Shown here in pieces: positions 34,079-54,658 of a stretch of DNA of 64,000 bases. Origin of the DNA: Octopus vulgaris. Its lineage: Eukaryota. Each line of letters begins with the position of its first letter. The first letter of the stretch is position 1. The translations under genes and the position numbers were made by a program. The stretch lies in assembly GCA_951406725.2 (NCBI GenBank), contig OX597815.1, positions 211,854,001 to 211,918,000 of the forward strand, read 5' to 3'. The notes beneath the pieces are model-generated. The model was not told the DNA's origin and searched no databases. It worked only from the letters and a program-made list of their open reading frames with translations.

Positions 34079-34117
<39 letters not shown>

Positions 34118-34129
34118 TATACATACATA

Positions 34130-34213
<84 letters not shown>

Positions 34214-34942
34214 ACGCGCGCACATCTTTGTATCTTTGTCACCACTACCAATTGACAACCGATGTTAGTGTATGTAAGTCCCTGTAACCTAGCTGTTCAG
34301 CACAATATATCGATAGAATAAGTTCCCGGCTTAAAAAAAATAAAAGTACTGAGGCCGATTCATTCAACTAAATATTTTTCATGGTGGTGCCCCAACATGA
34401 GCGCAGTCTAATGACTGAAACGAGTAAAAGATAAACTAGTGCAAGTCTCTGAAAGTAATTTTTGTAGATGAAAAAAAAATGTATCCGAACATGCTATGTG
34501 TTGAACCTGGAACATTCTGATTCCATGTCAGTCACAGGTTCACAAGTCACCGTACGTGTGTTCCTTTATACTTAATCAGTTTCTTATCCCAGACGATAAT
34601 AGTACGGTCCGTGCGCAGAACGCGTCACACGCATACAAAACATGTTCAATTATACGCAAACATGTATAATTATACAAATATGTATAATGATTTACGGAAA
34701 TACGTATAATTAGGCATAAATTTCTGAAATACATCAACGAAAATATTTATTAGCATCACTTTCCCAGATGTTTCTGAAATATAATTTCTTCGAACTTGCC
34801 AGGATTCGTCCCTGGGATCTGCAGATCATGAGACTTGCCCTCACAGGAATTATTAGTGCTTCGTATCTGGAAATGTCTGAACTAACATAAGACATATCTA
34901 ATTTCCTTTTGGCAAACATCTAGTCGATATACATATACATAT

Positions 34943-34995
<53 letters not shown>

Positions 34996-35459
34996 AATAA
35001 TCAGAGAGGGAGATATTATCCATCTAAATATAAAATATAGGCATAATTTTTCAAATATACCAACAAGTGTTTCTTAGAACAACACGCTAAAAGGTATCTG
35101 AATTTTAAAGAAAAGTAAAGACTTATATTAGAGTTTAGCTCGATTCGAAACTGCAACTCTCCGCTCCATATTATAGACTCTAACATTAGCCCTTGCAACA
35201 CGAATATACTGCTACTTTTCCGATAATTTCATTAAGTAATGTGAAGCTGGCTTAAAGTGTCTTAAAAATATATGCAACTCCAACGACAAGTGCTGTGCGC
35301 CGCTTTCTTTAAGCTGTTTACTCATTAGCATGTACATACACACATACGCTCACATACACATGAGCAAAAAAAATAGTCATGTTCATGTATAACTTAGGCG
35401 TGAATTTTAATAGTGAAACATGGGCAGTAATAAAGAGATTATCAAACAGGCCAGATGGT

Positions 35460-35890
35460 AGATCGTTTCGGTTTGAACGGCAGTTTTTAACATAATTTCT
35501 AGATAACTAAAAAATTTTTAACTTCGTATACTGGTAGAATGTGTTTATAAAACATCTTTTTCTCTTGGCTTTATTGAGAAAATTCTATAGTTTGTAAGAT
35601 ATTTGTTGTTTTTTTTCTTCAATTTCTGCAATTTCAACCAATCACTGACGTCTATTGAGTTAAAAACATTCTGTGCCGTATGAATATGTCCCTCATTTAA
35701 GAAACAGATTGGTTTTATTTACATTTGTGAAGAAAAAAAGATACCCTTCCCCCACCCCTAACCCTAACCATAACCAACCCTAACCCTAAAACAGACTGAA
35801 ATGCAATAGATCGATACTAGGGTTGTAATTATGGGTGACAATTTCATATGACACCGCTAGAAAAAACTGCCGTTCAAACCGAAAATATAC
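35460..35890. mobile_element. MITE with ~29-bp TIR (GGATCTTTTCGGTTTGAACGGCAGTTTTT type), internal (CCCTAA)n, 8-bp TSD
   Basis: TSD CAGATGGT at 35452-35459 and 35891-35898; paralogues at 54221-54658 and 41413-42222. Confidence 0.85.
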
Positions 35891-36275
35891 CAGATGGTTG
35901 CTATGCAATAATGCTACGAATGGACTTAAATATGAAATGGCAGCAAACGACTGCCTTTCTGGAGACCTGCCGAAAGTTAGCGAGAAGATCAGGTAAATAT
36001 GACTGCGACTAGCTGGTCACTGCGTGCGCTACCATCAGCTGGAGGAATCCAAATGAATTTTGTGGAACCCACTTTATGTTCATGTAAAAAAAGGAAAACG
36101 TCTTCGAGAACTTCATTGCACATATTGGCCTGGAATCATGAAGTGTGACGCACAAAACAGATACGTACAAAAACAAAAAAAGTTAGCGTATTAATATTAT
36201 TGATATGCTGTAATTTTTGAAACGAATGATGTAAAATGTATACCAACACTACATTCCCGAGATATAAAATGATTA

Positions 36276-36348
36276 CGAACTTGCCAGGATTCGAAACTGG
36301 AATCTTCTGATCCGTAGTCAGACGCGTTATCCATTGCGCCACAAGCCC
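36276..36348 (-). pseudogene. trnR-ACG: tRNA-Arg(ACG) variant with C70U and G53U; probably impaired
   Basis: 73 nt; B-box reads GTTTCGA; acceptor 3' strand CAAGTTC. Confidence 0.7.
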
Positions 36349-36919
36349 TCGACGGGGTGGGGGCTAACCTTCGCTACATACGTACTAATTTCTTTACTGA
36401 CTAACTGTTGCTGTTGACATACAAAGACATACAAATGGCTGCGCACATGATTATTTGAATTTCTGAAATACACCAATAAGGAATTTTCAGCGCCATTTCC
36501 CCGGATGTTTCTGAAACAAAATGCGTCCGAATTTACCCGGTTTCAAACCGAAGATCTCCTGACCCGTAAGCAAACGCGTAAGCCATTGCACCACAGGGCC
36601 TCGCGTAGTCCGTAGCAGATGTTTGTGCAGTAATTTCTTAACTAATTTTCATTGACTGTCAAAGACAGACACACACACACACACGTATGCATGTACATAC
36701 GTATAAATCATGAACATTTTTGCTTTTATTCTTTAACTTGTTTCAGTCATTAAAGTACCGCATTTAGTCAAACAAATCGACCACAGGAGTTATTCTTTGT
36801 AAGCCTAGTACTTATTCTATTGTTGTCTAAGGCGAACGCTAAGTTACGGGTACGTAAACACACCAAGCAACGGTGGGAGGACAAACACAGACATGCAAAT
36901 ACATATATATATATATATA

Positions 36920-37302
36920 CTAGCAGTATCGCCGGCGTTGCTCGGGTTTGTAAGGGAAATAACTATAAAGCATTTTTAGAGAGTTATAGCCAAAAAATAG
37001 CAAAAAAATGGGGGAAAAAATGATGGTAAATTTTTTTTGATAGTTAAAAAGGTCGAGTTGCGTCCCCTAGACCATCTGTGGTTTGTGTTTCTGATTGTCG
37101 ACCCCATGTCGAATTTATCGATCTTTTTCAGAACTGGGGGAACTTTTCAAAATTTTCGCTGCGTTAGTTTTGAATTATGACATTGGGCTATGTGTGTGTC
37201 AAGTTTCATCAGAATCGGTTGAAAGCCGTGGTCAGGGTGAGGGTACAAGCAAACAGACACACAGAAAACGCACAGACAAACTGCCGTTTATATAGAGAGA
37301 GA
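36920..37302 (-). mobile_element. Non-autonomous Helitron (related 3' end, different body)
   Basis: CTAGCAGTATCGCCGGCGTTGCTCGGGTTTGTAAGGG shared with 1481 and 21595. Confidence 0.7.
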
Positions 37303-37642
37303 TATATAAAGTGGATTTTCGATCTTCTAATCAGTATTATTTATATATATAAGCAAGACATTCAAACACTGAGATCTGAAATCAGATGCCACTACTACAA
37401 CGGGCTTCTTTCAGTTTTCGTCAACCACTCTTACTTCCCAAATGTTTCCGAAATAAAATGATATGAATATGAGCTTGCTAGGAATTCGAACCCAGAATAT
37501 TCTAATCCGTAGTCAGCTGCATTAGCCATTGCGCCACAAGCCTTGAAGTGAACAAACCTACCAACTTATCTACTAATTTCTTTACTAAATCCTGTTGCGC
37601 AGAGGCAAAGGTACAAAAGCCTTTACGTGCACATTTACATGT

Positions 37643-37677
<35 letters not shown>

Positions 37678-37932
37678 AATGATTATATAAATTTCTGAAA
37701 TACACCAACAAAAAAATTAGCACCACTTTCTCCAATGTTTCTGAAATAAAATGCACGCGATTTCTCCAGGATTCGAACCTGGAATCTTCTGACCCATAAT
37801 CCATTGCTTTACACGACATCGCATAGCCAATAATCGATGTTTTTTTACAGTAATTGATTTTACTAACTTTCCTTTGACTGACAAATACATGGGCGCGCGC
37901 ATGAACACGCATAAACACGCACGAATATACAT

Positions 37933-38503
37933 GCACATGGCGGAGTTGTAAACAGACCCTTCCTCCTTTAGAAAAAATCTTTTTACGGAATCCCACGTTT
38001 TCCGCCATGGATCTTGAAAAAAATTTTTCAAAAATTGCAACTTCAAAATTTCCCTCCCCACTCTCTCCATTTCTTCATTTTTTTCACATTTTCAGGAATT
38101 TTTTTTTTTTTTTTTTTTTCGCAAAATAGGTACAAAAATACGGATATTATGATTCTGAAAACAAATAGTTTGTAAAATTTCAATTTTTCAAAAAAAAAAC
38201 AAAAAAGATTACCTCAAACCCTCCCTTCCTGGTTATACGGCCTTGGCCTCCAAGCACATGCTAGAAATAACAGCCGAATCTCACAAAACTGCGATAACAT
38301 AACGAAAGAAATATGGAATCAATCTACTCACCTTTCTGCAAAGATTTCTTTCAGAGGTAATTTCCCGTACGATAAAGTGAAATTAAAGTGTTCGTTTTTG
38401 TTTGTTTTGTTTTTACAACTGAAACCTCCGCCATGTGCGCCGGTGGAATTTAGTGGGGATAAGCTTCGGCAATGTGTTTGTGAAATGTATAGAAATGCTG
38501 TAA

Positions 38504-38536
<33 letters not shown>

Positions 38537-38793
38537 TGAAAGTTTACAATTTTTGTCAGGATCATAATCTCCTTTTTTTTTTCTATGTATTTAGCAAAAA
38601 AAGTTTCCGAATAAAGTGAAAAATGAAGATGGAGGGGTGGTTTAAATATTTTAAAGTTGCAATTTTTTTGAATTTTTTTTTTTTTTTTTTTTCAGAATTG
38701 AAATCTCCAAAGCCGAAAACGTGGGATTCCGTGAAAAAGCAAACTTTTATAAGGATTGCGGTGGGGTGCCTTTACGACTCGGCCATGTGCCCC
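37933..38793. mobile_element. Long-TIR foldback DNA element inserted in the tRNA cluster
   Basis: About 250-bp imperfect inverted arms (GCACATGGCGGAGTTGTAAA..ACGGAATCCCACGTTTTC / GAAAACGTGGGATTCCGT..TTTACGACTCGGCCATGTGC); absent from the paralogous flank near 41100. Confidence 0.7.
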
Positions 38794-38874
38794 TAATCAT
38801 GAATGTATGCTTTAATTTCTAAAATGCATCGTCTAAAATATTCATTAGCACTACTGACCGAAATAAAATGAAAG

Positions 38875-38947
38875 CGAGATTGCCAACATTCGAACATGCA
38901 ATCTTCTGACCCGTAATCAGACGTGTAATCCATTGCGTCATAAGCCC
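38875..38947 (-). pseudogene. Decayed tRNA-Arg(ACG) pseudogene
   Basis: Full length but about 12 substitutions disrupting stems. Confidence 0.75.
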
Positions 38948-39152
38948 TCACGCTCTTTAACCTTTACTGCTTGCGCGCTGATCTCTTTACTGACCTCTAT
39001 TCACTGTCAAAGAGACAGATAAGTGTGCATGCTGACACACACATAACATGCATACGTATAATCATGAATATGTGCTTTAATTTTTAAAATGTATTGTGTA
39101 AAATGTTTATTAGCACGACTTTCTCCCAAATGATACCGAAATAAAATGAATA

Positions 39153-39225
39153 CGAGCTTGCCAGGATTCGAACCTGGAATCTTCTGATCCGTAGTCAGAC
39201 GCGTTATCCATTGCGCCACAAGCCC
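39153..39225 (-). tRNA. trnR-ACG: tRNA-Arg(ACG), consensus
   Basis: Exact consensus 73-mer, T4 downstream. Confidence 0.95.
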
Positions 39226-40391
39226 CCGACGGATGACGTTGGCTACATATATTCTAATTTCTTTACTATCTCCTGTTGTTAATATACAAAGACCCAAGCA
39301 CGCTCGCACGCACACAAAAAGCAAGCCCTTAGGCGAAACCGTAATAACAGCAACAGTATTCCAGGGAATGAACAGTAGGCACGCAGCCGCAAACAAAATC
39401 CCATCTTTTCAAACAAAATACCTTCGCAACAGAAAAAAAAACGTCTATCTAGATCCGTATAATGTGAACGATTGCGCGTTGTACGTGGCGTCATAGGACC
39501 TCAGTTAGTAAGTGGATGTGACTGCCAAAGATTATACATATGCCCGAATATACTTGCATACGGACAATCATCAATATATGTTTTAATTTCTGAAATGTAT
39601 CATCTAAAATATTTATTCGCTCTCCTTTGCCCTAAATATTTCCGTTATACAGTGAATACAAGCTTTCGAACCTGGAAACTTTTAATGCGTAGTCAGACGC
39701 GTTATCCATTGTGCCACAAGCCCTCAGTGTTAAGGTGTCTACTCCGTATATTCTAACTTCTTTACTAATTCTTGTTGTTGACATACAAAGATACAGACAC
39801 CCTGGTATGCTAGCAAGCACGTGCACTCACGCACACATGCGTACGCACATGCACACACACTGATGATTATATAATTTTATATAATGCACCAATAAAAATA
39901 TTATTAGCACTATTTTCCCCGATGTTCCTGAAGTAAAACGCGTCCGAATTTGCCAGAGTTCGACACTGGAATTTTGTGATCGGTTATTAGACGCGTTATC
40001 CATTGCGCCTCGCGTAGTCAGAAGTTGACGGTTATGAAGAATTTTTTTCACTTTCATTGACTGTCAAAGACAGGCACACGCGCGTGCAAGCTTGCACGAA
40101 TATACAGGCATACGTATAATCATGACTATATGCTTTCATTTCTGAAATGCATCGTCTGAAATAATCATTAGTACAACGTAACCAAATGTTTCTAAGACAA
40201 AAAAAATGAACCTGAGCTTGTCAGGATTCGAACCAGGAATCTTCTGACCCGTATGAAAACGTGTAATGCTTTGCGATATCAGCAGTTACTTACAAACATA
40301 TACGTGCATCCGTATGATCGTTAGATGTATAAATTTCAGATATACATAATATAAAATATTCACTAGCCCAACTTCCGAGATAAAACATTTG

Positions 40392-40464
40392 CGAGCTTGC
40401 CAGGATGCGAACCTTGAATCTTCTGATCCGTAGTCAGACGCGTTATCCATTGCGCCACAAGCCC
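40392..40464 (-). pseudogene. trnR-ACG: tRNA-Arg(ACG) with A58C and C50A; likely pseudogene
   Basis: B-box GGTTCGCATCC; T-stem mismatch. Confidence 0.7.
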
Positions 40465-40737
40465 CACAATTGCTAGCCGTTCGTACTTAACTCGTAATCT
40501 CTTTACTAACTCCTGTTGCGACCAAAGATACAGTCATTCCTGCGGGCGCACATAAACTCCCATACACACTCGCACACACTCATGATTATATAAATTTCTC
40601 AAGTACACTAACGAAAATTTTATTAGCACTACTTTCTTCCATGTTTCTGAAATAAAATGCACACGATTTTGCTAGGGTTCGAATCTGGAATTTCTGATCC
40701 CTAATCCATTGCCCCGCACGACCTCGCATAGTCAGTA

Positions 40738-41000
40738 AAAATTTAAAAATAAATGCGCCCTTATAAAGCCTAGCCAGGCTCATGGGCCCGGTTTCCCGGT
40801 TTCTATGGCGTATGTGTTCCCTGCTGGACGAGACGCCAGTCCACCGCAGCGTTACTCCTTTTTGCCGGCTGAGTAAACTGGAGCAACGTGAAATGAAGTG
40901 TTTTGCTCAAGAACACGATACGTTGCCCGGTCCAGGAATCGAAACCACAATCTTACGATCATGGTGCTGACACCCTAACCACTAAGCCACGTGCCTCCAC
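40738..41000 (-). mobile_element. tRNA-derived SINE (family C head) with 13-bp TSD
   Basis: CGCATAGTCAGTA at 40725-40737 and 41001-41013. Confidence 0.85.
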
Positions 41001-41412
41001 CGCATAGTCAGTATGTTGATATTTTTACAGTAATTGCTTTACTAGTTTCCGTTGACTGGCAAATATATGGTCGCGCACATAAACACGCACGAATTTACAT
41101 GAATCTACATAATCATGAATTTATGCTTTATTTTTCTAAAAGGCATCGTTTAAAAATATTCATTATCAGTACTTTCCGAAATAAAAGGAATACGAGATTG
41201 TCAACATTCGAGCATGCAATCAGACGCGTAATCCATTGCGTTACAATGCTCTTAACTGTTAATGCTTGCGCGCTGATCTCTTTACTAACCTCTATTCGCT
41301 GCCAAAGACACAGATATGCGCTCGCGCTGACACACACACACACACACACACGCGCAAACAATTAACGTGCATAGGTATAATAATGAATATATGCTTTAAT
41401 TTCTAAAATATC

Positions 41413-42222
<810 letters not shown>

Positions 42223-42663
42223 AAAATATTTATCAGCACTACCTTCCCAACAAAATGTTTCTGAAATAAATTAAATACGATGCAGGATTCGAACCTGCCA
42301 GGATTCGAACCCTGGAATCTTCTGATGCGTTATCTATCTGGCCACATAATAATCGACCCTACTTATCAGCTAGTTTTGTTACTAAGTCCTGTTGTGCACA
42401 AGCAAAGGAAGCGACACCATTGCGTACACGCACGTGCGCGCGCACACACACATACACTCACACACGGACGGACACACACACACGAACACATGATTATATG
42501 AATTTCTGAAATACATCAATAAGATGTGCGCGCGCTGACGAACATACAAACAATTAACGTGCATACTTATAATTATTCATATATGCTTTAATTTTTTAAA
42601 TGTAAAGTGTAAAATATTCATTAGCACGACTTTCCCTCAAATGTTACTGAAATAAAACGAATA

Positions 42664-42736
42664 CGAGCTTGCCAGGATTCGAACTTGGAATCTTCTGATC
42701 CGTAGTCAGACGCGTTATCCATTGCGCCACAAGCCC
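42664..42736 (-). tRNA. trnR-ACG: tRNA-Arg(ACG), G52A variant
   Basis: One T-stem mismatch (A52-C62). Confidence 0.78.
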
Positions 42737-43749
42737 TCACTAGATATTCAATCGCTAGGTATATTCTAATTTCTTTATTGACTAACTCCTGCTGTTGACA
42801 TACCCAGAAACAAACACACCTGCATGCGAGCGAACTCACTCACACACACACACACACACACACACACTCGCACGCACGCACGCACACACACATGCACACT
42901 CTCACGCGATTATATAAATTTCTGAAATATATCAACATAAAACTTATTGACACCACTTTCCCAGATGCTTCTGAAATAAAACAAGGATTTTGCCAGGATT
43001 AGATTCTGGAATCTTCTCTCTTGTAATCAGGCGCGTTGTCCGTTGTGTCATGGAAGCTCAGGTAGTCAGTGGCTGTGACTGTCAAAGATTGTACCTGTGC
43101 TCGAATAGCTTTGATTTCTGAAATGTATCATCTAAAATATTTATTAGCACTACTTTGCCCTAAAATATTACCGTAATAAAATGTATGCGAGCTTCCTACG
43201 ATTTGAACTTCGCATTTTTTGATGAGTAGTCAGAGACGTAATCCATTGCGTCGTACACAATACACGCTAATGATTGCATAATTTAGACGCGTTATGCATA
43301 GTGCCCCAGGGTCTCGCGTAGTCAGTAGTTGATGCTTATGAAGGAATTCTTTTACTTTCATTGCCCGTCAAAGACAGGACGCACCTGAAGGCTCGCACAA
43401 ATATACGTGCATACGTATAATCATGAATATATGCTTTCATTTCTGAAATGCATCGTCTAAAAGAACTACGTACCCAAATGTTTTTAAAATAAAATTAATG
43501 TGGACATGTCAGGATTCGAAACCGGAATCTTCTGACCCATACAAAAAACCTGTAATACATATCGGCAGTTAGTAATTATGCAGTAATCTTTTGCTAACTT
43601 TTATTTATTGTCATCAACACAGATATGAACACGCGCTGACACAGACTCAGAAACATATACATGCATACGTACAATCATTAGATGCATAAATTTCAGATAT
43701 ACATCATAGAAAATATTCACTACCCCAGCTTTCAGAGATAAAATCATTA

Positions 43750-43822
43750 CGAGCTCACCAGGATTCGAACCAGGAATCTTCTGATCCGTAGTCAGACGCG
43801 TTATCCATTGCGCCACAAGCCC
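43750..43822 (-). tRNA. trnR-ACG: tRNA-Arg(ACG), U66/G67 class plus A51U
   Basis: Three acceptor-stem wobbles and one T-stem mismatch; function doubtful. Confidence 0.65.
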
Positions 43823-43921
43823 TACGCTTAATAAACATTCCTACTTATTCCTAATTTCTTTACTGCCTAACTCTTGTTGTAGACAAAGATACAGACACAC
43901 ATGCGAGCACTCACGGACAGC

Positions 43922-43962
<41 letters not shown>

Positions 43963-44691
43963 ATACACACTCGTCAAAGGCGTCCTGTTTTGCCAGAGCT
44001 CGCACACAGAATCTTCTGCTCCGTAATTAGACGTAATTAGGGTTTCGCATAGTCATTAGTATGACGTGTATTCAGCTGAATAAAATTACTGCCATTGTTT
44101 GTCAACAACAACTATCGGCGGTGTATATTTCGTCTGTCACTGTTATTTATGACAACCCTAACCCTAAAACCTTAATCCTAACCCTAAAACACTAACCCTA
44201 ACGCCCTAATCCTAACCCTAAACCCCTAAAACCTTAAAGCTAAAACCAGTACAAACGCACGAACGATGATGCTTATGAAGGAATTCTTTTACTTTCATTG
44301 CCTGCCAGAGAAAGGCAAACATGCGCGTGAAGGCTCGCACGAATATACGTTCATGCGTATAATCTTGATGGCATGCTTTCAATTCTGAAATACATCATCT
44401 AAAATAATCATTAGTACAACGTACCAAATGTTTTCAAAATAAAATGAATATGAACATATCAGGATTCGAACCCGGAATCTTCTGACCTGTACGAAAACGT
44501 GTAATGCATTGCTCTGTTGGGAGTTACTACTTACTCACTCATCTTTCTGCCAATCTTTATTTACTGTCAACAACACAGATATGCACAGTTGCTGATACTC
44601 ACTCAAAAATATATAAGTGCATGCATATAATCACCAGATGTATAAATTCCACATCATAAAAATATTCACTTCCCGAGATATAAAACGATTA

Positions 44692-44764
44692 CGAGCTTGC
44701 CAGGATTCGAACCTGGAATCTTCTGATCCGTAGTCAGACGCGTTATCCATTGCGCCACAAGCCC
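44692..44764 (-). tRNA. trnR-ACG: tRNA-Arg(ACG), consensus
   Basis: Exact consensus. Confidence 0.95.
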
Positions 44765-44892
44765 TACGTTTACCAAACGTTCCAACTTATCTCCTAATGT
44801 CTTTACTGCCTAACACCTGTTGTAGACAAAGATACTGACACACCTGCGGTCACTCACAGACACGGACACCCAAACACACACACACAGACACA

Positions 44893-44928
<36 letters not shown>

Positions 44929-45033
44929 GAAACATACACTCGTGCACACACTTGGTTACATTATCTTCAGATATTCACCAACAAAAATATCATTAGCACC
45001 AATTTCCCCCATGTTTCTGAAATAAGATGCATC

Positions 45034-45079
45034 CGATCTCCCCAGGGTTCGAACCTGGAATCCATTGCGCCACAAGCCC
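45034..45079 (-). pseudogene. tRNA-Arg relic with 27-nt deletion removing the anticodon arm
   Basis: GGAATC joined to CATTGCG at an ATC microhomology; repeated at 49252 and 52690. Confidence 0.85.
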
Positions 45080-45212
45080 TCGGTATAACAACGGTTACTC
45101 CGTATACTCTAACTTATCTACTGACCCTTGTTGTTGACGTTGAAAACTGCCGTTCAAAAGGAAAAGATCCAAAATACTCACTACCCCAACTTCATGAGAT
45201 ATAAAACGATTA

Positions 45213-45285
45213 CGAGCTTGCCAAGATTCGAACCTGGAATCTTCTGATCCGTAGTCAGACGCGTTATCCATTGCACCACAAGCCC
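45213..45285 (-). tRNA. trnR-ACG: tRNA-Arg(ACG), C11U and C62U (both wobble-compatible)
   Basis: First copy of inner array 1. Confidence 0.8.
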
Positions 45286-45418
45286 TCGGTATAACAACGG
45301 TTACTCCGTATACTCTAACTTATCTACTGACCCTTGTTGTTGACGTTGAAAAGTGCCGTTCAAAAGGAAAAGATCCAAAATATTCACTACCCCAACTTCA
45401 TAAGATATAAAACGATTA

Positions 45419-45491
45419 CGAGCTTGCCAGGATTCGAACCTGGAATCTTCTGATCCGAAGTCAGACGCGTTATCCATTGCGCCACAAGCCC
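45419..45491 (-). tRNA. trnR-TCG: tRNA-Arg(TCG) on an ACG-type body
   Basis: Plus strand TGATCCGAAGTCAG = anticodon loop CT-TCG-GA; otherwise consensus. Confidence 0.88.
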
Positions 45492-45624
45492 TTGGTATAA
45501 CAACGGTTACTCCGTATACTCTAACTTATCTACTGACCCTTGTTGTTGACGTTGAAAAGTGCTGTTCAAAAGGAAAAGATCCAAAATATTCACTACCCCA
45601 ACTTCATAAGATATAAAACGATTA

Positions 45625-45697
45625 CGAGCTTGCCAGGATTCGAACCTGGAATCTTCTGATCCGAAGTCAGACGCGTTATCCATTGCGCCACAAGCCC
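45625..45697 (-). tRNA. trnR-TCG: tRNA-Arg(TCG) on an ACG-type body
   Basis: Same A34T change as 45419. Confidence 0.88.
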
Positions 45698-45830
45698 TCG
45701 GTATAACAACGGTTACTCCGTATACTCTAACTTATCTACTGACCCGTGTTGTTGACGTTGAAAACTGCCGTTCAAAAGGAAAACATCCAAAATATTCACT
45801 ACCCCAACTTCATGAGATATAAAACGATTA

Positions 45831-45903
45831 CGAGCTTGCCAGGATTCGAACCTGGAATCTTCTGATCCGTAGTCAGACGCGTTATCCATTGCGCCACAAG
45901 CCC
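45831..45903 (-). tRNA. trnR-ACG: tRNA-Arg(ACG), consensus
   Basis: Exact consensus. Confidence 0.95.
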
Positions 45904-46037
45904 TCGGTATAACAACGGTTACTCCGTATACTCTAACTTATCTACTGACCCGTGTTGTTGACGTTGAAAACTGCCGTTCAAAAGGAAAACATCCAAAATA
46001 TTCACTACCCCAACTTCATGAGATATAAAACGAATTA

Positions 46038-46110
46038 CGAGCTTGCCAGGATTCGAACCTGGAATCTTCTGATCCGTAGTCAGACGCGTTATCCATTGCG
46101 CCACAAGCCC
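46038..46110 (-). tRNA. trnR-ACG: tRNA-Arg(ACG), consensus
   Basis: Exact consensus. Confidence 0.95.
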
Positions 46111-46243
46111 TCGGTATAACAACGGTTACTCCGTATACTCTAACTTATCTACTGACCCTTGTTGTTGACGTTGAAAACTGCCGTTCAAAAGGAAAAGATC
46201 CAAAATATTCACTACCCCAACTTCATGAGATATAAAACGATTA

Positions 46244-46316
46244 CGAGCTTGCCAGGATTCGAACCTGGAATCTTCTGATCCGTAGTCAGACGCGTTATCC
46301 ATTGCGCCACAAGCCC
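46244..46316 (-). tRNA. trnR-ACG: tRNA-Arg(ACG), consensus
   Basis: Exact consensus. Confidence 0.95.
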
Positions 46317-46450
46317 TCGGTATAACAACGGTTACTCCGTATACTCTAACTTAACTACTGACTCGTGTTGTTGACGTTGAAAACTGACGTTCAAAAGGAA
46401 GAGCATCCAAAATATACACTACCCCAACTTCATGAGATATAAAACGATTA

Positions 46451-46523
46451 CGAGCTTGCCAGGATTCGAACCTGGAATCTACTGATCCGTAGTCAGACGT
46501 GTTATCCATTGCGACACAAGCCC
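46451..46523 (-). pseudogene. trnR-ACG: tRNA-Arg(ACG) with G10U, G24A, A43U; likely pseudogene
   Basis: Two D-stem mismatches and one anticodon-stem mismatch. Confidence 0.7.
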
Positions 46524-46657
46524 TCGGTATTACATCGTTTACTCCGTATACTCTAACTTAACTACTGACCCATGTTGTTGACGTTGAAAACTGCCGTTCA
46601 AAAGGAAAAACATCCAAAATATTCACTACCCCAACTTCATGAGATATAAAACGATTA

Positions 46658-46730
46658 CGAGCTTGCCAGGATTCGAACCTGGAATCTTCTGATCCGTAGT
46701 CAGACGCGTTATCCATTGCGCCACAAGCCC
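46658..46730 (-). tRNA. trnR-ACG: tRNA-Arg(ACG), consensus
   Basis: Exact consensus. Confidence 0.95.
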
Positions 46731-46863
46731 TCGGTATAACAACGGTTACTCCGTATACTCTAACTTATCTACTGACCCGTGTTGTTGACGTTGAAAACTG
46801 CCGTTCAAAAGGAAAAAATCCAAAATATTCACTACCCCAACTTCATGAGATATAAAACGATTA

Positions 46864-46936
46864 CGAGCTTGCCAGGATTCGAACCTGGAATCTTCTGATC
46901 CGTAGTCAGACGCGTTATCCATTGCGCCACAAGCCC
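46864..46936 (-). tRNA. trnR-ACG: tRNA-Arg(ACG), consensus
   Basis: Exact consensus; last of 9 in inner array 1. Confidence 0.95.
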
Positions 46937-47038
46937 TCACAAGATATTCAATCGCTAGGTATGTTCTAATTTCTTTATTGACAAACTCTTGCTGTTGACA
47001 TACCAAGAAGCAGCCACACCTGCATGTGAGTGAACTCA

Positions 47039-47101
<63 letters not shown>

Positions 47102-47944
47102 TCACACGCGATTATATAAATTTCTGAAATATATCAACATAAAACTTATTGACACCACTTTCCCAGATGTTTCTGAAATAAAACAAGGATTTTGCCAGGA
47201 TTAGTATATGCAATCTTCTGTCTCGTAATCAGGTGCGTTGTCCGTTTTGTCATGGGAGCTCAGGTAGTCAGTGGCTGTGACTGTCAAAGATTGTACCTGT
47301 GCTCGAATAGCTTTGATTTCTGAAATGTATCATCTAAAATATTTATTAGCACTACTTATCCCTAAAATATTACCGTAATAAAATGTATGCGAGCTTCCTA
47401 CGATTCGAACTTCGCATTTTTTGATGAGTAGTCAGAGACGTAATCCATTGCGTCGTACACAATACACGCTAATGATTGCATAATTTAGACGCGTTATGCA
47501 TAGTGTCCCAGGGTCGCATAGTGAGTAGTTGATGCTTATGAAGGAATTCTTTTACTTTCATTGCCTGTCAAAGACAGGCAAACACGCGCGTGAAGGCTCG
47601 CACAAATATACGTGCACACGTATAATCATGAATATATGCTTTCATTTCTGAAATGCATCGTCTAAAAGAACTACGTACCCAAATGTTTTTAAAATAAAAT
47701 TAATGTGGACATGTCAGGATTCGAAACCGGAATCTTCTGACCCATACAAAAAAACCTGTAATACATATCGGCAGTTAGTAATTACGCAGTAATCTTTTTG
47801 CTAACTTTTATTTATTGTCATCAACACGCGCTGACACAGACTCAGAAACGTATACATGCATACGTACAATCATTAGGTGCATAAATTTCAGATATACATC
47901 ATATAAAATATTCACTACCCCAGCTTTCAGAGATAAAATTATTA

Positions 47945-48017
47945 CGAGCTCACCAGGATTCGAACCTGGAATCTTCTGATCCGTAGTCAGACGCGTTATC
48001 CATTGCGCCACAAGCCC
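47945..48017 (-). tRNA. trnR-ACG: tRNA-Arg(ACG), U66/G67 class
   Basis: Acceptor 3' strand TGAGCTC; boxes intact. Confidence 0.75.
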
Positions 48018-48116
48018 TGCGCTTAACAAGCGTTCCTACTTATTCCTAATTTCTTTACTGCCTAACTCTTGTTGTAGACAAAGATACAGACACACATGCG
48101 AGCACTCACGGACAAC

Positions 48117-48173
<57 letters not shown>

Positions 48174-48907
48174 ACACACACTCGTCAAAGGCGTCCTGTT
48201 TTGCCAGAGCTCGCACACAGAATCTTCAGCTCCGTAATTAGACGTAATTAGGGTTTCGCATAGTCATTAGTATGACGTGTATTCAGCTGAATAAAATTAT
48301 TGCCATTGTTTGTCAACAACAACTATCGGCCGTGTATATTTCGTTTGTCACTGTTATTTATGACAACCCTAACCTAAAACCTTAATCCTAACCCTAAAAC
48401 CTTAACCCTAACCCTAAAGCCCTAACACTAACCCTAAAACCCTAAAACCTTAAAGCTAAAACCAGTAAAAACGCACGAACGATGATGCTTATGAAGGAAT
48501 TCTTTTACTTTCATTGCCTGCCAGAGAAAGGCAAACATGCGCGTGAAGGCTCGCACGAATATACGTTCATGCGTATAATCTTGATGGCATGCTTTCAATT
48601 CTGAAATACATCATCTAAAATAATCATTAGTACAACGTACCAAATGTTTTCAAAATAAAATGAATATGAACATATCAGGTTTCGAACCCGGAATCTTCTG
48701 ACCTGTACGAAAACGTGTAATGCATTGCTCTGTTGGGAGTTACTACTTACTCACTCATCTTTCTGCCAATCTTTATTTACTGTCAACAACACAGATATGC
48801 ACAGTTGCTGATACTCACTCAAAAATATATAAGTGCATGCATATAATCACCAGATCTATAAATTCCACATCATAAAAATATACACTTCCCGAGATATAAA
48901 ACGATTA

Positions 48908-48980
48908 CGAGCTTGCCAGGATTCGAACCTGGAATCTTCTGATCCGTAGTCAGACGCGTTATCCATTGCGCCACAAGCCC
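48908..48980 (-). tRNA. trnR-ACG: tRNA-Arg(ACG), consensus
   Basis: Exact consensus. Confidence 0.95.
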
Positions 48981-49108
48981 TACGTTTACCAAACGTCCCT
49001 ACTTATCTCCTAATGTCTTTACTGCCTAACACCTGTTGTAGACAAAGATACTGACACACCTGCGGTCACTCACACACACGGACACCCAAACACACACATA
49101 CAGACACA

Positions 49109-49145
<37 letters not shown>

Positions 49146-49251
49146 GCAAACATACACTCGTGTACACACTTGGTTACATTATCTTCAGATATTCACCAAC
49201 AAAAATATCATTAGCACCAATCTCCACCATGTTTCTGAAATAAGATGTATC

Positions 49252-49297
49252 CGATTTCCCCAGGGTTCGAACCTGGAATCCATTGCGCCACAAGCCC
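49252..49297 (-). pseudogene. tRNA-Arg relic lacking anticodon arm
   Basis: Same 27-nt deletion as 45034. Confidence 0.85.
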
Positions 49298-49431
49298 TCG
49301 GTATAACAACGGTTACTCCGTATACTCTAGCTTATCTACTGACCCGTGTTGTTGACGTTGAAAACTGCCGTTCAAAAGGAAAAACATCCAAAATATTCAC
49401 TACCCCAACTTCATGAGATATAAAACGAATA

Positions 49432-49504
49432 CGAGCTTGCCAGGATTCGAACCTGGAATCTTCTAATCCGTAGTCAGACGCGTTATCCATTGCGCCACAA
49501 GCCC
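49432..49504 (-). tRNA. trnR-ACG: tRNA-Arg(ACG), C40U (G30-U40 wobble)
   Basis: One substitution; first of inner array 2. Confidence 0.85.
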
Positions 49505-49638
49505 TCGGTATAACAATGGTTACTCCGTATACTCTACCTTATCTACTGACCCTTTTTGTTGACGTTGAAAACTGCCGTTCAAAAGGAAAAAATTCCAAAA
49601 TATTCACTACCCCAACTTCATGAGATATAAAACGAATG

Positions 49639-49711
49639 CGAGCTTGCCAGGATTCGATCCTGGAATCTTCTGATCCGTAGTCAGACGCGTTATCCATTGC
49701 GCCACAAGCCC
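49639..49711 (-). tRNA. trnR-ACG: tRNA-Arg(ACG), T54A variant
   Basis: T-loop reads ATCGAAT. Confidence 0.75.
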
Positions 49712-49844
49712 TCGGTATAACAACGGTTACTCCGTATACTCTAACTTATCTACTGACCCTTCTGTTGACGTTGAAAACTGCCGTTCAAAAGGAAAAACAT
49801 CCAAAATATTCACTACCCCAACTTCATGAGATATAAAACGAATA

Positions 49845-49917
49845 CGAGCTTGCCAGGATTCGAACCTGGAGTCTTCTGATCCGTAGTCAGACGCGTTATC
49901 CATTGCGCCACAAGCCC
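49845..49917 (-). tRNA. trnR-ACG: tRNA-Arg(ACG), U47C variant
   Basis: Single variable-loop change. Confidence 0.92.
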
Positions 49918-50050
49918 TCGGTATGACAACGGTTACTCCGTATACTCTAACTTATCTACTGACCCGTGTTGTTGAAGTTGAAAACTGCCGTTCAAAAGGA
50001 AAAAGATCCAAAATATTCACTACCCGACTTCATGAGATATAAAACGATTA

Positions 50051-50123
50051 CGAGCTTGCCAGGATTCGAACCTGGAATCTTCTGATCCGTAGTCAGACGC
50101 GTTATCCATTGCGCCACAAGCCC
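50051..50123 (-). tRNA. trnR-ACG: tRNA-Arg(ACG), consensus
   Basis: Exact consensus. Confidence 0.95.
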
Positions 50124-50256
50124 TCGGTATAACAACGGTTACTCCGTATACTCTAACTTATCTACTGACCCGTGTGTTGACGTTGAAAACTGCCGTTCAA
50201 AAGGAAAAAGATCCGAAATATTCACTACCCCAACTTCATGAGATATAAAACGATTA

Positions 50257-50329
50257 CGAGCTTGCCAGGATTCGAACCTGGAATCTTCTGATCCGTAGTC
50301 AGACGCGTTATCCATTGCGCCACAAGCCC
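50257..50329 (-). tRNA. trnR-ACG: tRNA-Arg(ACG), consensus
   Basis: Exact consensus; last of 5 in inner array 2. Confidence 0.95.
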
Positions 50330-50428
50330 TCGATATTCAATCGCTAGGTATCCGTATACTCTAATTTCCGTGACTAACCCTCTGTTGACATACCAAGAAA
50401 CAGACACACCTGCATGCGAGCGAACTCA

Positions 50429-50477
<49 letters not shown>

Positions 50478-51347
50478 ACACACACACACACGCACACTCA
50501 CACGCACGCGATTATATAAATTTCTGAAATATATCAACATAAAACTTATTGACACCACTTTCCCAGATGCTTCTGAAATAAAACGCACGGATTTTGCCAG
50601 GATTAGTATATGCAATCTTCTGTCTCGTAATCAGGCGCGTTGTCCGTTTTGTCACGGGAGCTCAGGCAGTCAGTGGCTGTGACTGTCAAAGATTGTACCT
50701 GTGCTCGAATAGCTTTGATTTCTGAAATGTATCATCTAAAATATTTATTAGCACTACTTTGCCCTAAAATATTACCGTAATAAAATGTATACGAGCTTCC
50801 TACGATTCGAACTTCGCATCTTTTGATGGGTAGTCAGAGTCGTAATCCATTGCGTCGTACACAATACACGCTAATGATTGCATAATTTAGACGCGTTATG
50901 CATAGTGTCCCAGGGTCTCGCATAGTGAGTAGTTGATGCTTATGAAGGAATTCTTTTACTTTCATTGCCTGTCAAAGACAGGAAAACACGCGCGTGAAGG
51001 CTCGCACAAATATACGTGCATAAGTATAATTATGAATATATGCTTTCATTTCTGAAATGCATCGTCTAAAAGAACTACGTACCCAAATGTTTTTAAAATA
51101 AAATTAATGTGGACATGTCAGGATTCGAAACCGGAATCTTCTGACCCATACAAAAAAACCTGTAATACATATCGGCAGTTAGTAATTATGCAGTAATCTT
51201 TTGCTAACTTTTATTTATTGTCATCAACACGCGCTGACACAGACACAGAAACATATACATGCATACGTACAATCATTAGGTGCATAAATTTCAGATATAC
51301 ATCATAGAAAACATTCACTACCCCAGCTTTCAGAGATAAAATTATTA

Positions 51348-51420
51348 CGAGCTCACCAGGATTCGAACCTGGAATCTTCTGATCCGTAGTCAGACGCGTT
51401 ATCCATTGCGCCACAAGCCC
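51348..51420 (-). tRNA. trnR-ACG: tRNA-Arg(ACG), U66/G67 class
   Basis: Same as 47945. Confidence 0.75.
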
Positions 51421-51519
51421 TACGCTTAATAAACATTCCTACTTATTCCTAATTTCTTTACTGCCTAACTCTTGTTATAGACAAAGATACAGACACACAT
51501 GCGAGCACTCACGGACAGC

Positions 51520-51570
<51 letters not shown>

Positions 51571-52006
51571 ACACACACACACACACATACACATACACAC
51601 TCGTCAAAGGCGTCCTGTTTTGCCAAAGCTCGCACACAGAATCTTCTGCTCCGTAATTAGACGTAATTAGGGTTTCGCATAGTCATTAGTATGACGTGTA
51701 TTCAGCTGAATAAAATTACTGCCATTGTTTGTCAACAACAACTATCGGCCGTGTATATTTCGTTTGTCACTGTTATTTATGACAACCCTAACCCTAAAAC
51801 CTTAATCCTAACCCTAAAACACTAACCCTAACGCCCTAATCCTAACCCTAAAACCCTAAAACCTTAAAGCTAAAACCAGTACAAACGCACGAACGATGAT
51901 GCTTATGAAGGAATTCTTTTACTTTCATTGCCTGCCAGAGAAAGGCAAACATGCGCGTGAAGGCTCGCACGAATATACGTGCACACGTATAATCTTGATG
52001 GCATGC

Positions 52007-52034
52007 GGTTAATATATAGATCTATATATTAACC
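52007..52034. mobile_element. 28-bp perfect palindrome with 8-bp flanking duplication (minimal DNA-transposon derivative)
   Basis: GGTTAATATATAGATCTATATATTAACC flanked by TGGCATGC / TGACATGC; absent from the paralogous sites near 44370 and 48586. Confidence 0.6.
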
Positions 52035-52357
52035 TGACATGCTTTCATTTCTGAAATACATCATCTAAAATAATCATTAGTACAACGTACCAAATATTTT
52101 CAAAATAAAATGAATATGAACATATCAGGATTCGAACCCGGAATCTTCTGACCTGTACGAAAACGTGTAATGCATTGCTCTGTTGGGAGTTACTACTTAC
52201 TCACTCATCGTTCTGCCAATCTTTATTTACTGTCAACAACACAGATATGCACAGTTGCTGATACTCACTCAAAAATATATAAGTGCATGCATATAATCAC
52301 CAGATGTATAAATTCCACATCATAAAAATATTCACTTCCCGAGATATAAAACGATTA

Positions 52358-52430
52358 CGAGCTTGCCAGGATTCGAACCTGGAATCTTCTGATCCGTAGT
52401 CAGACGCGTTATCCATTGCGCCACAAGCCC
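52358..52430 (-). tRNA. trnR-ACG: tRNA-Arg(ACG), consensus
   Basis: Exact consensus. Confidence 0.95.
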
Positions 52431-52689
52431 TACGTAAACCAAACGTTCCTACTTATCTCCTAATGTCTTTACTGCCTTTACTGTATCTTTGGTAGACAAA
52501 GATACTGACACACCTGCGGTCACTCACAAACACGGACACCCAAACACTCACACACAGACACACACACGCACACACACACACAAACAAACATACACTCATG
52601 TACACACTTGGTTACATTATCTTCAGATATTCACCAACAAAAATATCATTAGCACCAATCTCCACCATGTTTCTGAAATAAGATGCATC

Positions 52690-52735
52690 CGATTTCCCCA
52701 GGGTTCGAACCTGGAATCCATTGCGCCACAAGCCC
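52690..52735 (-). pseudogene. tRNA-Arg relic lacking anticodon arm
   Basis: Same 27-nt deletion as 45034. Confidence 0.85.
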
Positions 52736-52869
52736 TCGGTATAACAACGGTTACTCCGTATACTCTAACTTATCTACTGACCCATGTTGTTGACGTTGAA
52801 AACTGCCGTTCAAAAGGAAAAACATCCAAAATATTCACTACCCCAACTTCATGAGATATAAAACGAATG

Positions 52870-52942
52870 CGAGCTTGCCAGGATTCGAACCTGGAATCTT
52901 CTGATCCGTAGTCAGACGCGTTATCCATTGCGCCACAAGCCC
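52870..52942 (-). tRNA. trnR-ACG: tRNA-Arg(ACG), consensus
   Basis: Exact consensus. Confidence 0.95.
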
Positions 52943-53076
52943 TCGGTATAACAACGGTTACTCCGTATACTCTAACTTATCTACTGACCCATGTTGTTGA
53001 CGTTGAAAACTGCCGTTCAAAAGGAAAAACATCCAAAATATTCACTACCCCAACTTCATGAGATATAAAACGAATA

Positions 53077-53149
53077 CGAGCTTGCCAGGATTCGAACCTG
53101 GAATCTTCTGATCCGTAGTCAGACGCGTTATCCATTGCGCCACAAGCCC
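53077..53149 (-). tRNA. trnR-ACG: tRNA-Arg(ACG), consensus; last copy of cluster
   Basis: Exact consensus with a unique upstream flank. Confidence 0.95.
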
Positions 53150-54220
53150 TCATGCTGATTTACCGTGTTGTTTACCTACTAATTTCTTAAGTGACACCTT
53201 CCTTGTCACACACACACACACACACATATACATACACAGATAAACATGCTACACACACACACGCACGCACACACACACACACACACACATACACACACAC
53301 ACACGTACACACAAAACAGAATGCATCTATTTTAAAAAACGTATAAATTTTTATTATTGTTTCATGCTACACGTGCTTTCAAGTCTCCGTTTGTCTGTAT
53401 AACTCGCGCCTTTTTTTCAACGTGCGTTTAAACTAAATTTGCGTTTTTGTGACAAGAGATTTCTCCTCTCATGCTTTACTCTCGCCTCCTCTCCTTAACT
53501 TCCTGTCCCTCTCACACACACATGAACTCACTCCTTCTCTCATTCTCTCTCTCTCTCCCTTACCTCTCTAATTCATTCTTCCCCCTCTTTTCTTTCGTTG
53601 TCTCTTTTTACAAAAAGCTATTACCACACGCCTACTTCATACACAAACTACAATGGCTCTGTTTTGTTTGCCCTACCTGCAATGCTCTCCAGTATAATTA
53701 AGCATTGAGTGTGTGTGTATGTGTGTGTGTGTGTGTGCGTAGATACTTATGTATGTGTGTGGTATATGCGTGTCTGCGTGAGTGTATGAGTGACGGTATG
53801 CGTGTATGCATATACCTGTATGTGTGTGTCTGTGATTGTGCCTGTGTTAATACGCAAGCGTGCGTACACGTGTGCGTACGTGCGTGTGTGTGTACGCAGG
53901 GGCGTTAGACTAACTACCGTCTTAAAAATACGAACATGTAAGGCAATAGCCTTCCATTAGTTTGTACAGAGTTAATACACTAACGCTACACTGAACAACT
54001 TTCTAGATTCAGCGAAACCTTTTCTTACTGCATACCAGCAAAACTTCTCTTAGCAGAATCGTTAGAACGTACGAATAAAATCTTTGAAGTGTTCCTTCTG
54101 GTTCTTTATGTTCTGCGTTCAAATCCCATGAAAGTCAACTTTTGTTTTCATCCCTCTGCGGTCGATAAAATATAATACCAGTGAAATACTGAGTTATATT
54201 GGCACGTCTAATCATCTCTT

Positions 54221-54658
54221 GGACCTTTTCGGTTTGAACGGCAGTTTTTTAAAATAATTTCCACGTAACTAAACACTTTTAAACTTCGTATACTGGTAGA
54301 ATGTGTTCACAAAACATTTTTTTCTCTTGGCTTTATTGAGAAAATTCTATAGTTTGTAAGATATTTGTTGTTATTTTTCTTCAATTTCTGCAATTTCAAC
54401 CAATCAATGACGTCTATTGAGGTGAAAACATTCTCTGCCGTATGAAAATGTCCCTCGTTTAAGAAACAGATCGGGTTTATTTACATTTCTGAAGAAAAAG
54501 GATACCCTTCCCCTCACTCCTAACCCTAACCATAACCCTAACTAACCCTAACCCTAAAACAGATTAAAATGCAATAGATCGATACTAGGGTCATAATTAT
54601 GGGTGATAATTTCATATGACACCGCTAGAAAAAACTGCCGTTCAAACCGAAAATATCC
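54221..54658. mobile_element. GGATC-TIR MITE with internal (CCCTAA)n and 8-bp TSD
   Basis: TSD CATCTCTT / CACCTCTT; collinear with 35460-35890; inserted in a SINE-A. Confidence 0.85.

What the first reader, a model, noticed from the sequence alone, without database searches (positions are those of the whole stretch)
45080..46936. The amplifying 206-bp tRNA monomer contains a transposon end
Seen: every inner monomer carries GTTGAAAACTGCCGTTCAAAAGGAAAAGATCC-AAAATATT. This matches the MITE right terminus plus TSD at 42191-42230 (GTTAAAAACTGCATTTCAAACCGAAAAGATCC-AAAATATT), fused through AAAATATT to the native flank AAAATATTCACTACCCC. So all 16 of the youngest tRNA copies each have one MITE TIR beside them. 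Inference: the transposon end may have seeded or may drive the tandem amplification (transposase nicking, rolling-circle or break-induced repair), or it may be a passenger.
Basis: partly seen in the sequence, partly recalled or inferred. Interest (0 to 1): 0.7.

Follow-up and report, generated by a model that had tools for sequence, protein, structure and literature searches.

The report
Transposon-end scar in tRNA array
Each repeat of this tRNA gene array carries a short stub of a jumping gene, likely a scar of the deletion that shortened the repeat; the array likely grew by ordinary unequal recombination, since other equally young tRNA arrays in the genome lack the stub.

Summary
The transposon end is real: all 16 assembled 206-bp tRNA-Arg monomers carry a 32-33 bp terminal inverted repeat (TIR). 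It comes from a second subfamily (549 exact copies in the genome), not from the element at 42191.

It most likely does not drive the array. The monomer joins the leader of one ancestral tRNA unit to the trailer of another, across the TIR. Array ends lie in tRNA homology, not at the TIR tip. Only 2 of 16 TIRs are still exact. Four other short-period tRNA arrays (Phe 48 x 200 bp, Asp, Cys, Leu) lack this TIR; three are as homogeneous or more so. No partner transposase was found in 70 loci.

Likely history: insertion, then a deletion leaving 33 bp, then unequal exchange between tRNA copies. Whether transposase excision caused the deletion is open.

The junction is bridged in 4 of 4 public runs (three organism labels). 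Contig depth hints that the array is under-assembled. Three look-ups found no earlier scan note on this.

The parts
33705..53149 (-). tRNA-Arg gene cluster: 29 ARAGORN genes (27 ACG, 2 TCG) among decayed tRNA relics at mostly 200-350 bp spacing; most of the genome's best-scoring copies of this tRNA
45060..46938 (-). Run 1 of the 206-bp monomer, 9 copies
49278..50336 (-). Run 2 of the 206-bp monomer, 5 copies
52716..53151 (-). Run 3 of the 206-bp monomer, 2 copies; ends in a tRNA with its own native leader and no TIR
42649..53150 (.). Three-copy higher-order repeat (starts near 42649, 46849, 50242), copies 2.5-2.7% apart; each holds one monomer run
46111..46168 (-). Monomer part 1 (example copy): 58-bp 5' leader of ancestral unit type X
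46169..46201 (+). Monomer part 2: 33-bp solo end of a subfamily-B TIR element, tip pointing right; inner side joined to the leader with about 1 shared base
46202..46243 (-). Monomer part 3: presumed 8-bp target site plus the 3' trailer of ancestral unit type B/Z, with a T4 terminator-like run
46244..46316 (-). Monomer part 4: intact tRNA-Arg(ACG)
45035..45079 (-). Chimeric pseudo-tRNA opening each run: decayed relic joined at ATC to the last 20-22 bp of an intact gene; this deletion erased the array's original left end
   Evidence: sequence
45419..45697 (-). Two adjacent monomers whose anticodon reads TCG (one base from ACG)
39651..40391 (-). Older paralogous block keeping the inferred ancestral order: X-type leader, 570 bp with two relics, then a B-type trailer
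41413..42222 (.).
35460..35890 (.). Subfamily-A element with an 8-bp target duplication
54221..54658 (.). Subfamily-A element with an 8-bp target duplication (1 mismatch)
44061..44240 (.). Interior fragment of a related element without ends, copied three times with the higher-order repeat

Best explanation
Each 206-bp monomer is a compact tRNA-Arg gene unit with a 33-bp transposon end in its spacer, and that end is likely a passive scar copied along by unequal exchange between tRNA genes. Steps: (1, inferred) a subfamily-B TIR element inserted at the AAAATATT motif in the trailer of tRNA unit Z. (2, junction shown, cause inferred) a deletion removed all but 33 bp of the element plus roughly 570 bp of host DNA, leaving tRNA X and tRNA Z 206 bp apart. 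(3, inferred from array ends) unequal exchange between the two near-identical tRNAs made and then varied the tandem run. (4, inferred) a second exchange between tRNA A and the last tRNA of the run triplicated the 3.4-4.2 kb block. Transposase is needed for step 1, may have caused step 2 (about 30%, my estimate), and is not needed after that.
For: Chimeric monomer: the leader scores 64 against the unit at 39651 and at most 42 against the other 12 units compared. The trailer scores 50-57 against B-type units and 18 against 39651's trailer (shuffle mean 19.7). The two parents lie 570 bp apart in the older block. Array ends: runs start within 22 bp of tRNA homology, and run 3 ends in a tRNA with a native leader and no TIR. 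Decay: 2 of 16 TIRs are exact and 6 of 16 keep the terminal 9 bases. Distinct variants per base are 0.29 in the TIR, 0.28 and 0.21 in the flanks, and 0.12 in the tRNA. Controls: Phe 48 x 200 bp (0.8% between neighbours), Asp 32 + 8 x 158 bp (1.3-3.0%), Cys 5 x 155 bp (2.6%; older parts 9%) and Leu 11 x 168 bp (8.9%) have no site within 10 mismatches of 28 to this TIR; the Arg runs are at 2.8% and 3.4%. The Phe spacer matched only its own array and a second site on the same contig. None of 40 Merlin and 30 MULE loci inspected was bounded by this TIR pair.
Against: The TIR family is prone to tandem repeats joined exactly at its tip: 144 same-strand tip pairs, the first 100 falling in 31 loci. 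The left end of the array was erased by a later deletion, and runs 1 and 2 end at the higher-order junction, so only one array end is informative. Unit X's own trailer is lost; I infer its type from a paralogue. The deletion kept the whole core TIR (about 29 bp) plus 4 bp, which fits transposase-related gap repair as well as chance. Two separate element ends in this cluster abut the same AAAATATT motif, though 0 of 47 unselected target sites do; this is unexplained. Only the Phe spacer was searched genome-wide for other transposon fragments; the Asp, Cys and Leu spacers were compared only with 1.15 Mb of held loci.
Confidence: 0.72

Rival explanations
1. Tip-anchored seeding: transposase joined the element's tip to a target 206 bp upstream on the sister chromatid (alternative transposition). 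That made the first duplication of tRNA plus TIR, and recombination later amplified it and replaced both ends.
For: At 11 of 30 other loci the family shows tip-joined terminal duplications with a single left end whose target duplication matches the outermost tip. The monomer's tip is joined to an A-rich 8-mer like those junctions. Such events are proven for maize Ac (PMC3744419, passages).
Against: It predicts that the monomer is one ancestral unit with its own leader and trailer; it is a chimera. It predicts a last TIR on a foreign flank; none follows 53150 before the separate element at 54221. The same junction 8-mers occur in plainly nested insertions (L196 against L232, L203 against L226), so nesting plus recombination can explain the other loci.
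Confidence: 0.12
2. Exaptation: the TIR stub is kept because its T-runs act as back-up RNA polymerase III terminators, which would let tRNA genes be packed at 206 bp.
For: On the transcribed strand the TIR adds three T4 runs behind a T4 primary stop; the five native trailers compared have two or three T runs in 75 nt. In 9 of 16 monomers one run has grown to T5 or T6. The junction is bridged in runs under three organism labels.
Against: The TIR varies as much as the flanks. Native trailers already have a second T run. A-run growth is common slippage. No RNA data bear on it.
Confidence: 0.08
3. Ongoing drive: transposase nicks or cuts the TIR in each monomer and triggers rolling-circle or break-induced amplification.
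For: Some subfamily-B ends are within 0.5% of their consensus, so the family was active recently. Contig depth hints at more copies than are assembled.
Against: 10 of 16 tips have lost the terminal 9 bases, including both copies of run 3. All stubs face one way, with no left end to pair with. TIR-free arrays are larger and more homogeneous. 0 of 98 exact TIRs listed on contigs C1-C3 outside the window have an exact same-strand neighbour within 1 kb.
Confidence: 0.05
4. Assembly artefact: the junction or the tandem structure is a mis-join.
For: The end of run 2 (about 50330-50390) looks like a mosaic of two flanks, and depth suggests the locus is collapsed.
Against: Contigs bridge the leader-TIR junction in 4 of 4 runs and the TIR-trailer junction in 3 of 4.
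Confidence: 0.03

Closest known systems
Arabidopsis 81-gene tRNA array of 27 t-units (Kane, Freeling, Lyons 2010, PMC2886086; abstract and section 23 read)
   Same: Tandem tRNA array with chimeric spacers, explained by unequal crossing-over, concerted evolution and neutral copy-number drift.
   Different: The unit here is one gene in 206 bp, nested in a higher-order repeat, with a transposon end in the spacer. The parts read mention no transposon end.
Satellites from double or nested transposon insertion (McGurk and Barbash 2018, PMC5932611; abstract and section 17 read)
   Same: Transposition makes the first junction, with a target duplication at it, and recombination expands it. This fits the family's tip-joined repeats at other loci.
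   Different: There the units are whole elements. Here they are 41-250 bp terminal pieces, and in the tRNA array the homology used is the host gene's.
Tetris/TIR-220 of Drosophila virilis (PMC4079207, abstract) and TIR-derived satellites reviewed in PMC9659126 (passages)
   Same: A long-TIR non-autonomous element supplies satellite monomers.
   Different: TIR-220 repeats are internal to the TIR; here the junction is the exact tip. The tRNA monomer is 84% host sequence.
Ac reversed-ends tandem duplication (Zhang, Zuo, Peterson 2013, PMC3744419; passages)
   Same: A tandem unit with a transposon tip at a junction.
   Different: Those have one breakpoint at the element end and kb-to-Mb units. This array's ends are in tRNA homology.
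Transposon remnants in rDNA spacers (bioRxiv 10.1101/2023.02.20.529178, abstract)
   Same: Transposon scars carried in the spacer of a tandem structural-RNA gene.
   Different: There they are inferred from short direct repeats; here the donor subfamily is identified by exact sequence.
Merlin superfamily (PMC8101967, passages)
   Same: 5'-GG termini, 8-bp target duplication, TIR length in range.
   Different: No transposase-coding partner with these ends was found.

Membership tests
Non-autonomous TIR element (MITE) as donor of the stub | Terminal inverted repeats on a short non-coding element | tested here: met
   Paired ends about 320-845 bp apart in fetched loci
Non-autonomous TIR element (MITE) as donor of the stub | Target-site duplication of fixed length | tested here: met
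   8 bp with at most 1 mismatch in 21 of 37 candidate pairs, 7 bp in 3, 9 bp in 0; the 37 include internal tandem tips and mis-paired nested ends
Non-autonomous TIR element (MITE) as donor of the stub | High dispersed copy number | tested here: met
   549 exact 32-mers; 3406 first-look candidates for subfamily A
Merlin | 5'-GG termini, TIR 24-462 bp, 8-9 bp target duplication | tested here: met
   against the definition in PMC8101967
Merlin | Shared ends with an element coding a DDE_Tnp_IS1595 transposase | tested here: inconclusive
   0 of 40 loci inspected, of 150 scored hits, were bounded by this TIR pair; those with clear ends had other TIRs
Mutator/MULE or foldback-like | Shared ends with a MULE transposase element | tested here: inconclusive
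   0 of 30 loci (1.5 kb flanks, of 66 hits) held this TIR; the flanks may be too short
hAT or P (8-bp duplications) | Partner transposase and characteristic termini | not tested
   No search made; that their termini differ from GG is recalled, from no call
Tandem tRNA array evolving by unequal crossing-over | Head-to-tail units with ends in gene homology and chimeric spacers | tested here: met
Tandem tRNA array evolving by unequal crossing-over | Copy number varies among paralogous runs or individuals | tested here: inconclusive
   9, 5 and 2 copies in three paralogous runs; depth in other runs is only a hint
Tandem tRNA array evolving by unequal crossing-over | Direct observation of crossover products | not testable with these tools
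   Needs pedigrees or sperm long reads
Alternative-transposition tandem duplication (Ac RET, P HEI) | Duplication breakpoint at the element tip, last copy on the original flank | tested here: not met
   Run 3 ends in a tRNA with a native leader and no TIR; the left end is uninformative
Alternative-transposition tandem duplication (Ac RET, P HEI) | Duplicated segment is one contiguous ancestral stretch | tested here: not met
   Leader and trailer match different ancestral unit types

The most novel reading that the evidence does not exclude
A MITE family whose ends repeatedly seed tandem repeats built, by faulty excision, a minimal tRNA gene cassette. Its TIR T-runs now serve as back-up Pol III terminators, and the cassette has expanded to tens of copies and persists in related octopus species: a transposon end domesticated as the spacer of a tRNA gene family.
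Probability: 0.1. Interest if true: 0.6.

Novelty: new member of a known kind. Interest (0 to 1): 0.3.

Why it matters
As it stands this is a well-resolved example of how a tRNA array is born. Insertion, deletion and unequal exchange can each be read from the sequence, and TIR-free arrays in the same genome serve as controls. It also shows a genome with several young tRNA arrays that may be under-assembled, which matters for tRNA gene counts. The side finding, a TIR family with 30 or more tip-joined repeats from nested dimers up to a 37-copy satellite, is a natural series for testing the double-insertion route to satellites. If the terminator reading held, it would be a new use for a transposon end.

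Tried and rejected
Same insertion as the 42191 copy: rejected on subfamily-diagnostic bases and a different flank paralogue.

Target preference for AAAATATT: not found genome-wide. 0 of 47 unselected sites lie within 1 mismatch. 8 of 549 exact TIRs are followed by AAAAT, i.e. 4 loci outside the window against about 2.4 expected.

Enrichment of this family near tRNA genes: not seen. 8 ends in 330 kb around 33 tRNA loci, 7 in 100 kb around dispersed Arg genes, 9 in 202 kb around Merlin hits, 0 in 96 kb beside the window; 3 in the 140 kb around the His, Leu, Asp, Phe and Cys sites.

Monomer dispersed elsewhere: the spacer matched in full only at the 16 window sites among 40 of 94 candidates scored.

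Partner transposase: not found. A search for widely spaced TIR pairs could not be run.

Two of the pattern hits (contigs C4, C15) held no ARAGORN tRNA and were dropped. The C1 His site gave no array of 3 or more units. 13 of 113 pattern matches were not listed.

No RNA holder was listed, which is no evidence on expression.

Literature searches for a transposon end in a tRNA-array spacer, or for cephalopod tRNA arrays, listed no such paper (open-access library only; supplements not read).

Full report
Setting. The window lies on contig C2 of a 2.8-Gb genome, octopus-like by my inference from its repeat content and from other scan notes' wording. From 33.7 to 53.2 kb it holds 29 ARAGORN tRNA-Arg genes on the minus strand among decayed relics. 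Of the 40 best genome hits to this tRNA, 29 lie in the cluster. The right part is a three-copy higher-order repeat of 3.4-4.2 kb, with copies 2.5-2.7% apart. Each copy ends in a run of a 206-bp monomer: 9, 5 and 2 copies.

Observation. The monomer matches 42191-42230 at 35 of 40 bases, far above shuffles. The element there is a non-autonomous TIR element of about 440 bp with GG termini. Its family makes 8-bp target duplications (21 of 37 candidate pairs). The monomer's stub belongs to a second subfamily, B, with long TIRs. Its 32-mer is exact at 549 genome sites. It is 1 base from the commonest B end over 33 bp and 6 from the 42191 copy. So it is a separate insertion. The termini and duplication length fit the Merlin definition (PMC8101967, passages), but none of 40 Merlin and 30 MULE loci inspected was bounded by this TIR. 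The superfamily stays open.

Anatomy. Each monomer reads: 58-bp leader, 33-bp TIR stub, 42-bp trailer beginning with the presumed target, 73-bp tRNA. The leader is closest to the unit at 39651 (score 64; at most 42 for the other 12 units compared). The trailer is closest to B-type units (50-57) and is at shuffle level (18) against 39651's own trailer. In the older block these two parents lie 570 bp apart in the same order. The spacer is therefore best read as the collapsed interval between two tRNA genes: an element inserted in the trailer of one, and a deletion removed most of it along with the host DNA back to the other's leader. The inner junction shares about one base. The cause of the deletion cannot be read. 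Gap repair after excision is plausible (own knowledge of cut-and-paste elements), as is an ordinary deletion.

What amplified it. Runs begin inside 22 bp shared between a chimeric pseudo-tRNA and the intact gene. Run 3 ends in a tRNA with a native leader and no TIR. Only that one end is informative: the left end was erased by a deletion, and runs 1 and 2 end at the higher-order junction. The stub is not preserved: 2 of 16 are exact, 6 of 16 keep the last 9 bases, and variants are as dense as in the flanks (0.29 against 0.28 and 0.21 per base; tRNA 0.12). Some variants may be assembly errors.

A pattern of three spaced promoter boxes gave 113 matches, of which 100 were listed, in 8 regions. Besides this locus, four were tandem tRNA arrays: Phe 48 x 200 bp at 0.8% between neighbours, Asp 32 + 8 x 158 bp at 1.3-3.0%, Cys 5 x 155 bp at 2.6% with older parts, and Leu 11 x 168 bp at 8.9%. 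The Arg runs are at 2.8% and 3.4%. None of the four has a site within 10 mismatches of this TIR. The Phe spacer matched no dispersed repeat. One region gave a His trio without an array and two held no tRNA. So 1 of 5 arrays carries this TIR, and young arrays form without it.

Evidence on the other side. A search for same-strand tip pairs 37-217 bp apart gave 144 matches; the first 100 fall in 31 loci. I inspected all 30 outside the window. In 26 the unit is element sequence only, with the exact tip joined to an internal site; 4 hold other sequence. None held an ARAGORN tRNA. Five are nested self-insertions with an inner 8-bp duplication (four exact, one with a mismatch), and one more is probable. 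Eleven have a single left end with the duplication at the outermost tip. Some have grown into satellites: 41 bp x about 14, 95 bp x about 20, 144 bp x 37. The same junction 8-mers occur in nested and collapsed forms. This fits the double-insertion route to satellites (PMC5932611, abstract and section 17): transposase makes a junction and recombination expands it. Sister-chromatid transposition as in maize Ac (PMC3744419, passages) is not excluded for those loci. For the tRNA monomer it predicts a non-chimeric unit and a terminal TIR, and neither is seen. With the full 32-mer, 0 of 98 listed copies on C1-C3 outside the window had an exact same-strand neighbour within 1 kb, so such arrays are a minority of copies. 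At L026 a TIR end is amplified between two SINE copies, the same passenger geometry as here.

Other genomes. Contigs bridge the leader-TIR junction in 4 of 4 public runs laid, under three organism labels. One run may be the assembly's own source. In three runs the junction contigs have depth 1675-3735, against about 19-55 for most low-depth contigs laid in the same runs, while only 3-4 assembled monomers carry those exact letters. The tool warns that depth is no copy number. I take it only as a hint that the locus is under-assembled or very variable. Tandem structure in those runs was not tested.

Comparison and verdict. The array works like the Arabidopsis tRNA array attributed to unequal crossing-over (PMC2886086, abstract and section 23). 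TIR-derived satellites are known (PMC4079207 abstract; PMC9659126 passages), as are transposon scars in rDNA spacers (abstract). An octopus repeat survey lists recently active Merlin, Mutator and MITE families (PMC13282606, passages). Seven searches of the open library listed no report of a TIR stub in a tRNA-array spacer; supplements were not read, and repeat libraries in them could already hold this family. New member of a known kind; interest 0.3.

Noticed in passing
G000 C11:25.067-25.083 Mb (L235-L236), C27:24.468 Mb (L232), C29:9.236 Mb (L234), C27:31.192 Mb (L023) and 26 more loci: The subfamily-B TIR forms tandem repeats joined exactly at its tip, from nested dimers with an 8-bp duplication to satellites (144 bp x 37, 95 bp x about 20, 41 bp x about 14); 44 of 144 matches were not listed. 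A natural series for MITE-to-satellite origin, arguably of more interest than the finding itself.
   Followed up: partly
window 41413-42222: A subfamily-A element holds a tRNA-Arg unit of about 400 bp (about 41631-42040) that replaces about 20 bp of its interior, with short homologies at both ends. The unit is 3-4% from the higher-order copies, which suggests a templated insertion. No transposed copy was seen among the tRNA loci fetched.
   Followed up: partly
window 45419-45491, 45625-45697; L066:4998-5070 (C8): Anticodon shift ACG to TCG by one base, in two adjacent monomers and in a dispersed copy on C8 with the same sequence. The other Arg(TCG) gene seen (L115) differs at 20 sites.
   Followed up: partly
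G000 C18:30.1476-30.1572 Mb; C5:51.227-51.236 and 51.301 Mb; C12:25.259-25.270 Mb; C3:164.79 Mb: Young short-period tandem tRNA arrays: Phe(GAA) 48 x 200 bp at 99%, Asp(GTC) 158 bp, Cys(GCA) 155-177 bp, Leu(TAA) 168 bp.
   Followed up: partly
window 45080-45212 in public runs X1-X3: Junction contig depth is tens of times that of low-depth contigs in the same runs; the assembly may hold a fraction of the real copies.
   Followed up: no
window 42223 and 45171 (and later monomers): Two independent element ends of different subfamilies abut the same AAAATATT motif in paralogous tRNA trailers, though no genome-wide preference for it was found; a local preference near Pol III genes is possible.
   Followed up: partly
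window 50330-50390: The end of run 2 is a mosaic of the monomer leader and the A-type leader; gene conversion or a polishing artefact.
   Followed up: no
L219:2667-2878 (C13): A full subfamily-B end is followed after about 160 bp of host-like DNA by a second short solo end in the same direction; similar to the monomer's stub but not amplified.
   Followed up: no
L043-L046, L052, L055, L056, L058, L059, L081: Merlin-type frames of about 250-320 codons without stops, several with clear TIRs of another family.
   Followed up: no
13 of 33 tRNA loci fetched (among L107-L132): Many single dispersed tRNA-Lys(TTT) copies; possibly a mobile or SINE-like family.
   Followed up: no
L061:6157-7677 (C2:126.595 Mb): A dispersed tRNA-Arg lies about 600 bp from an intact subfamily-B element; probably chance.
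   Followed up: no
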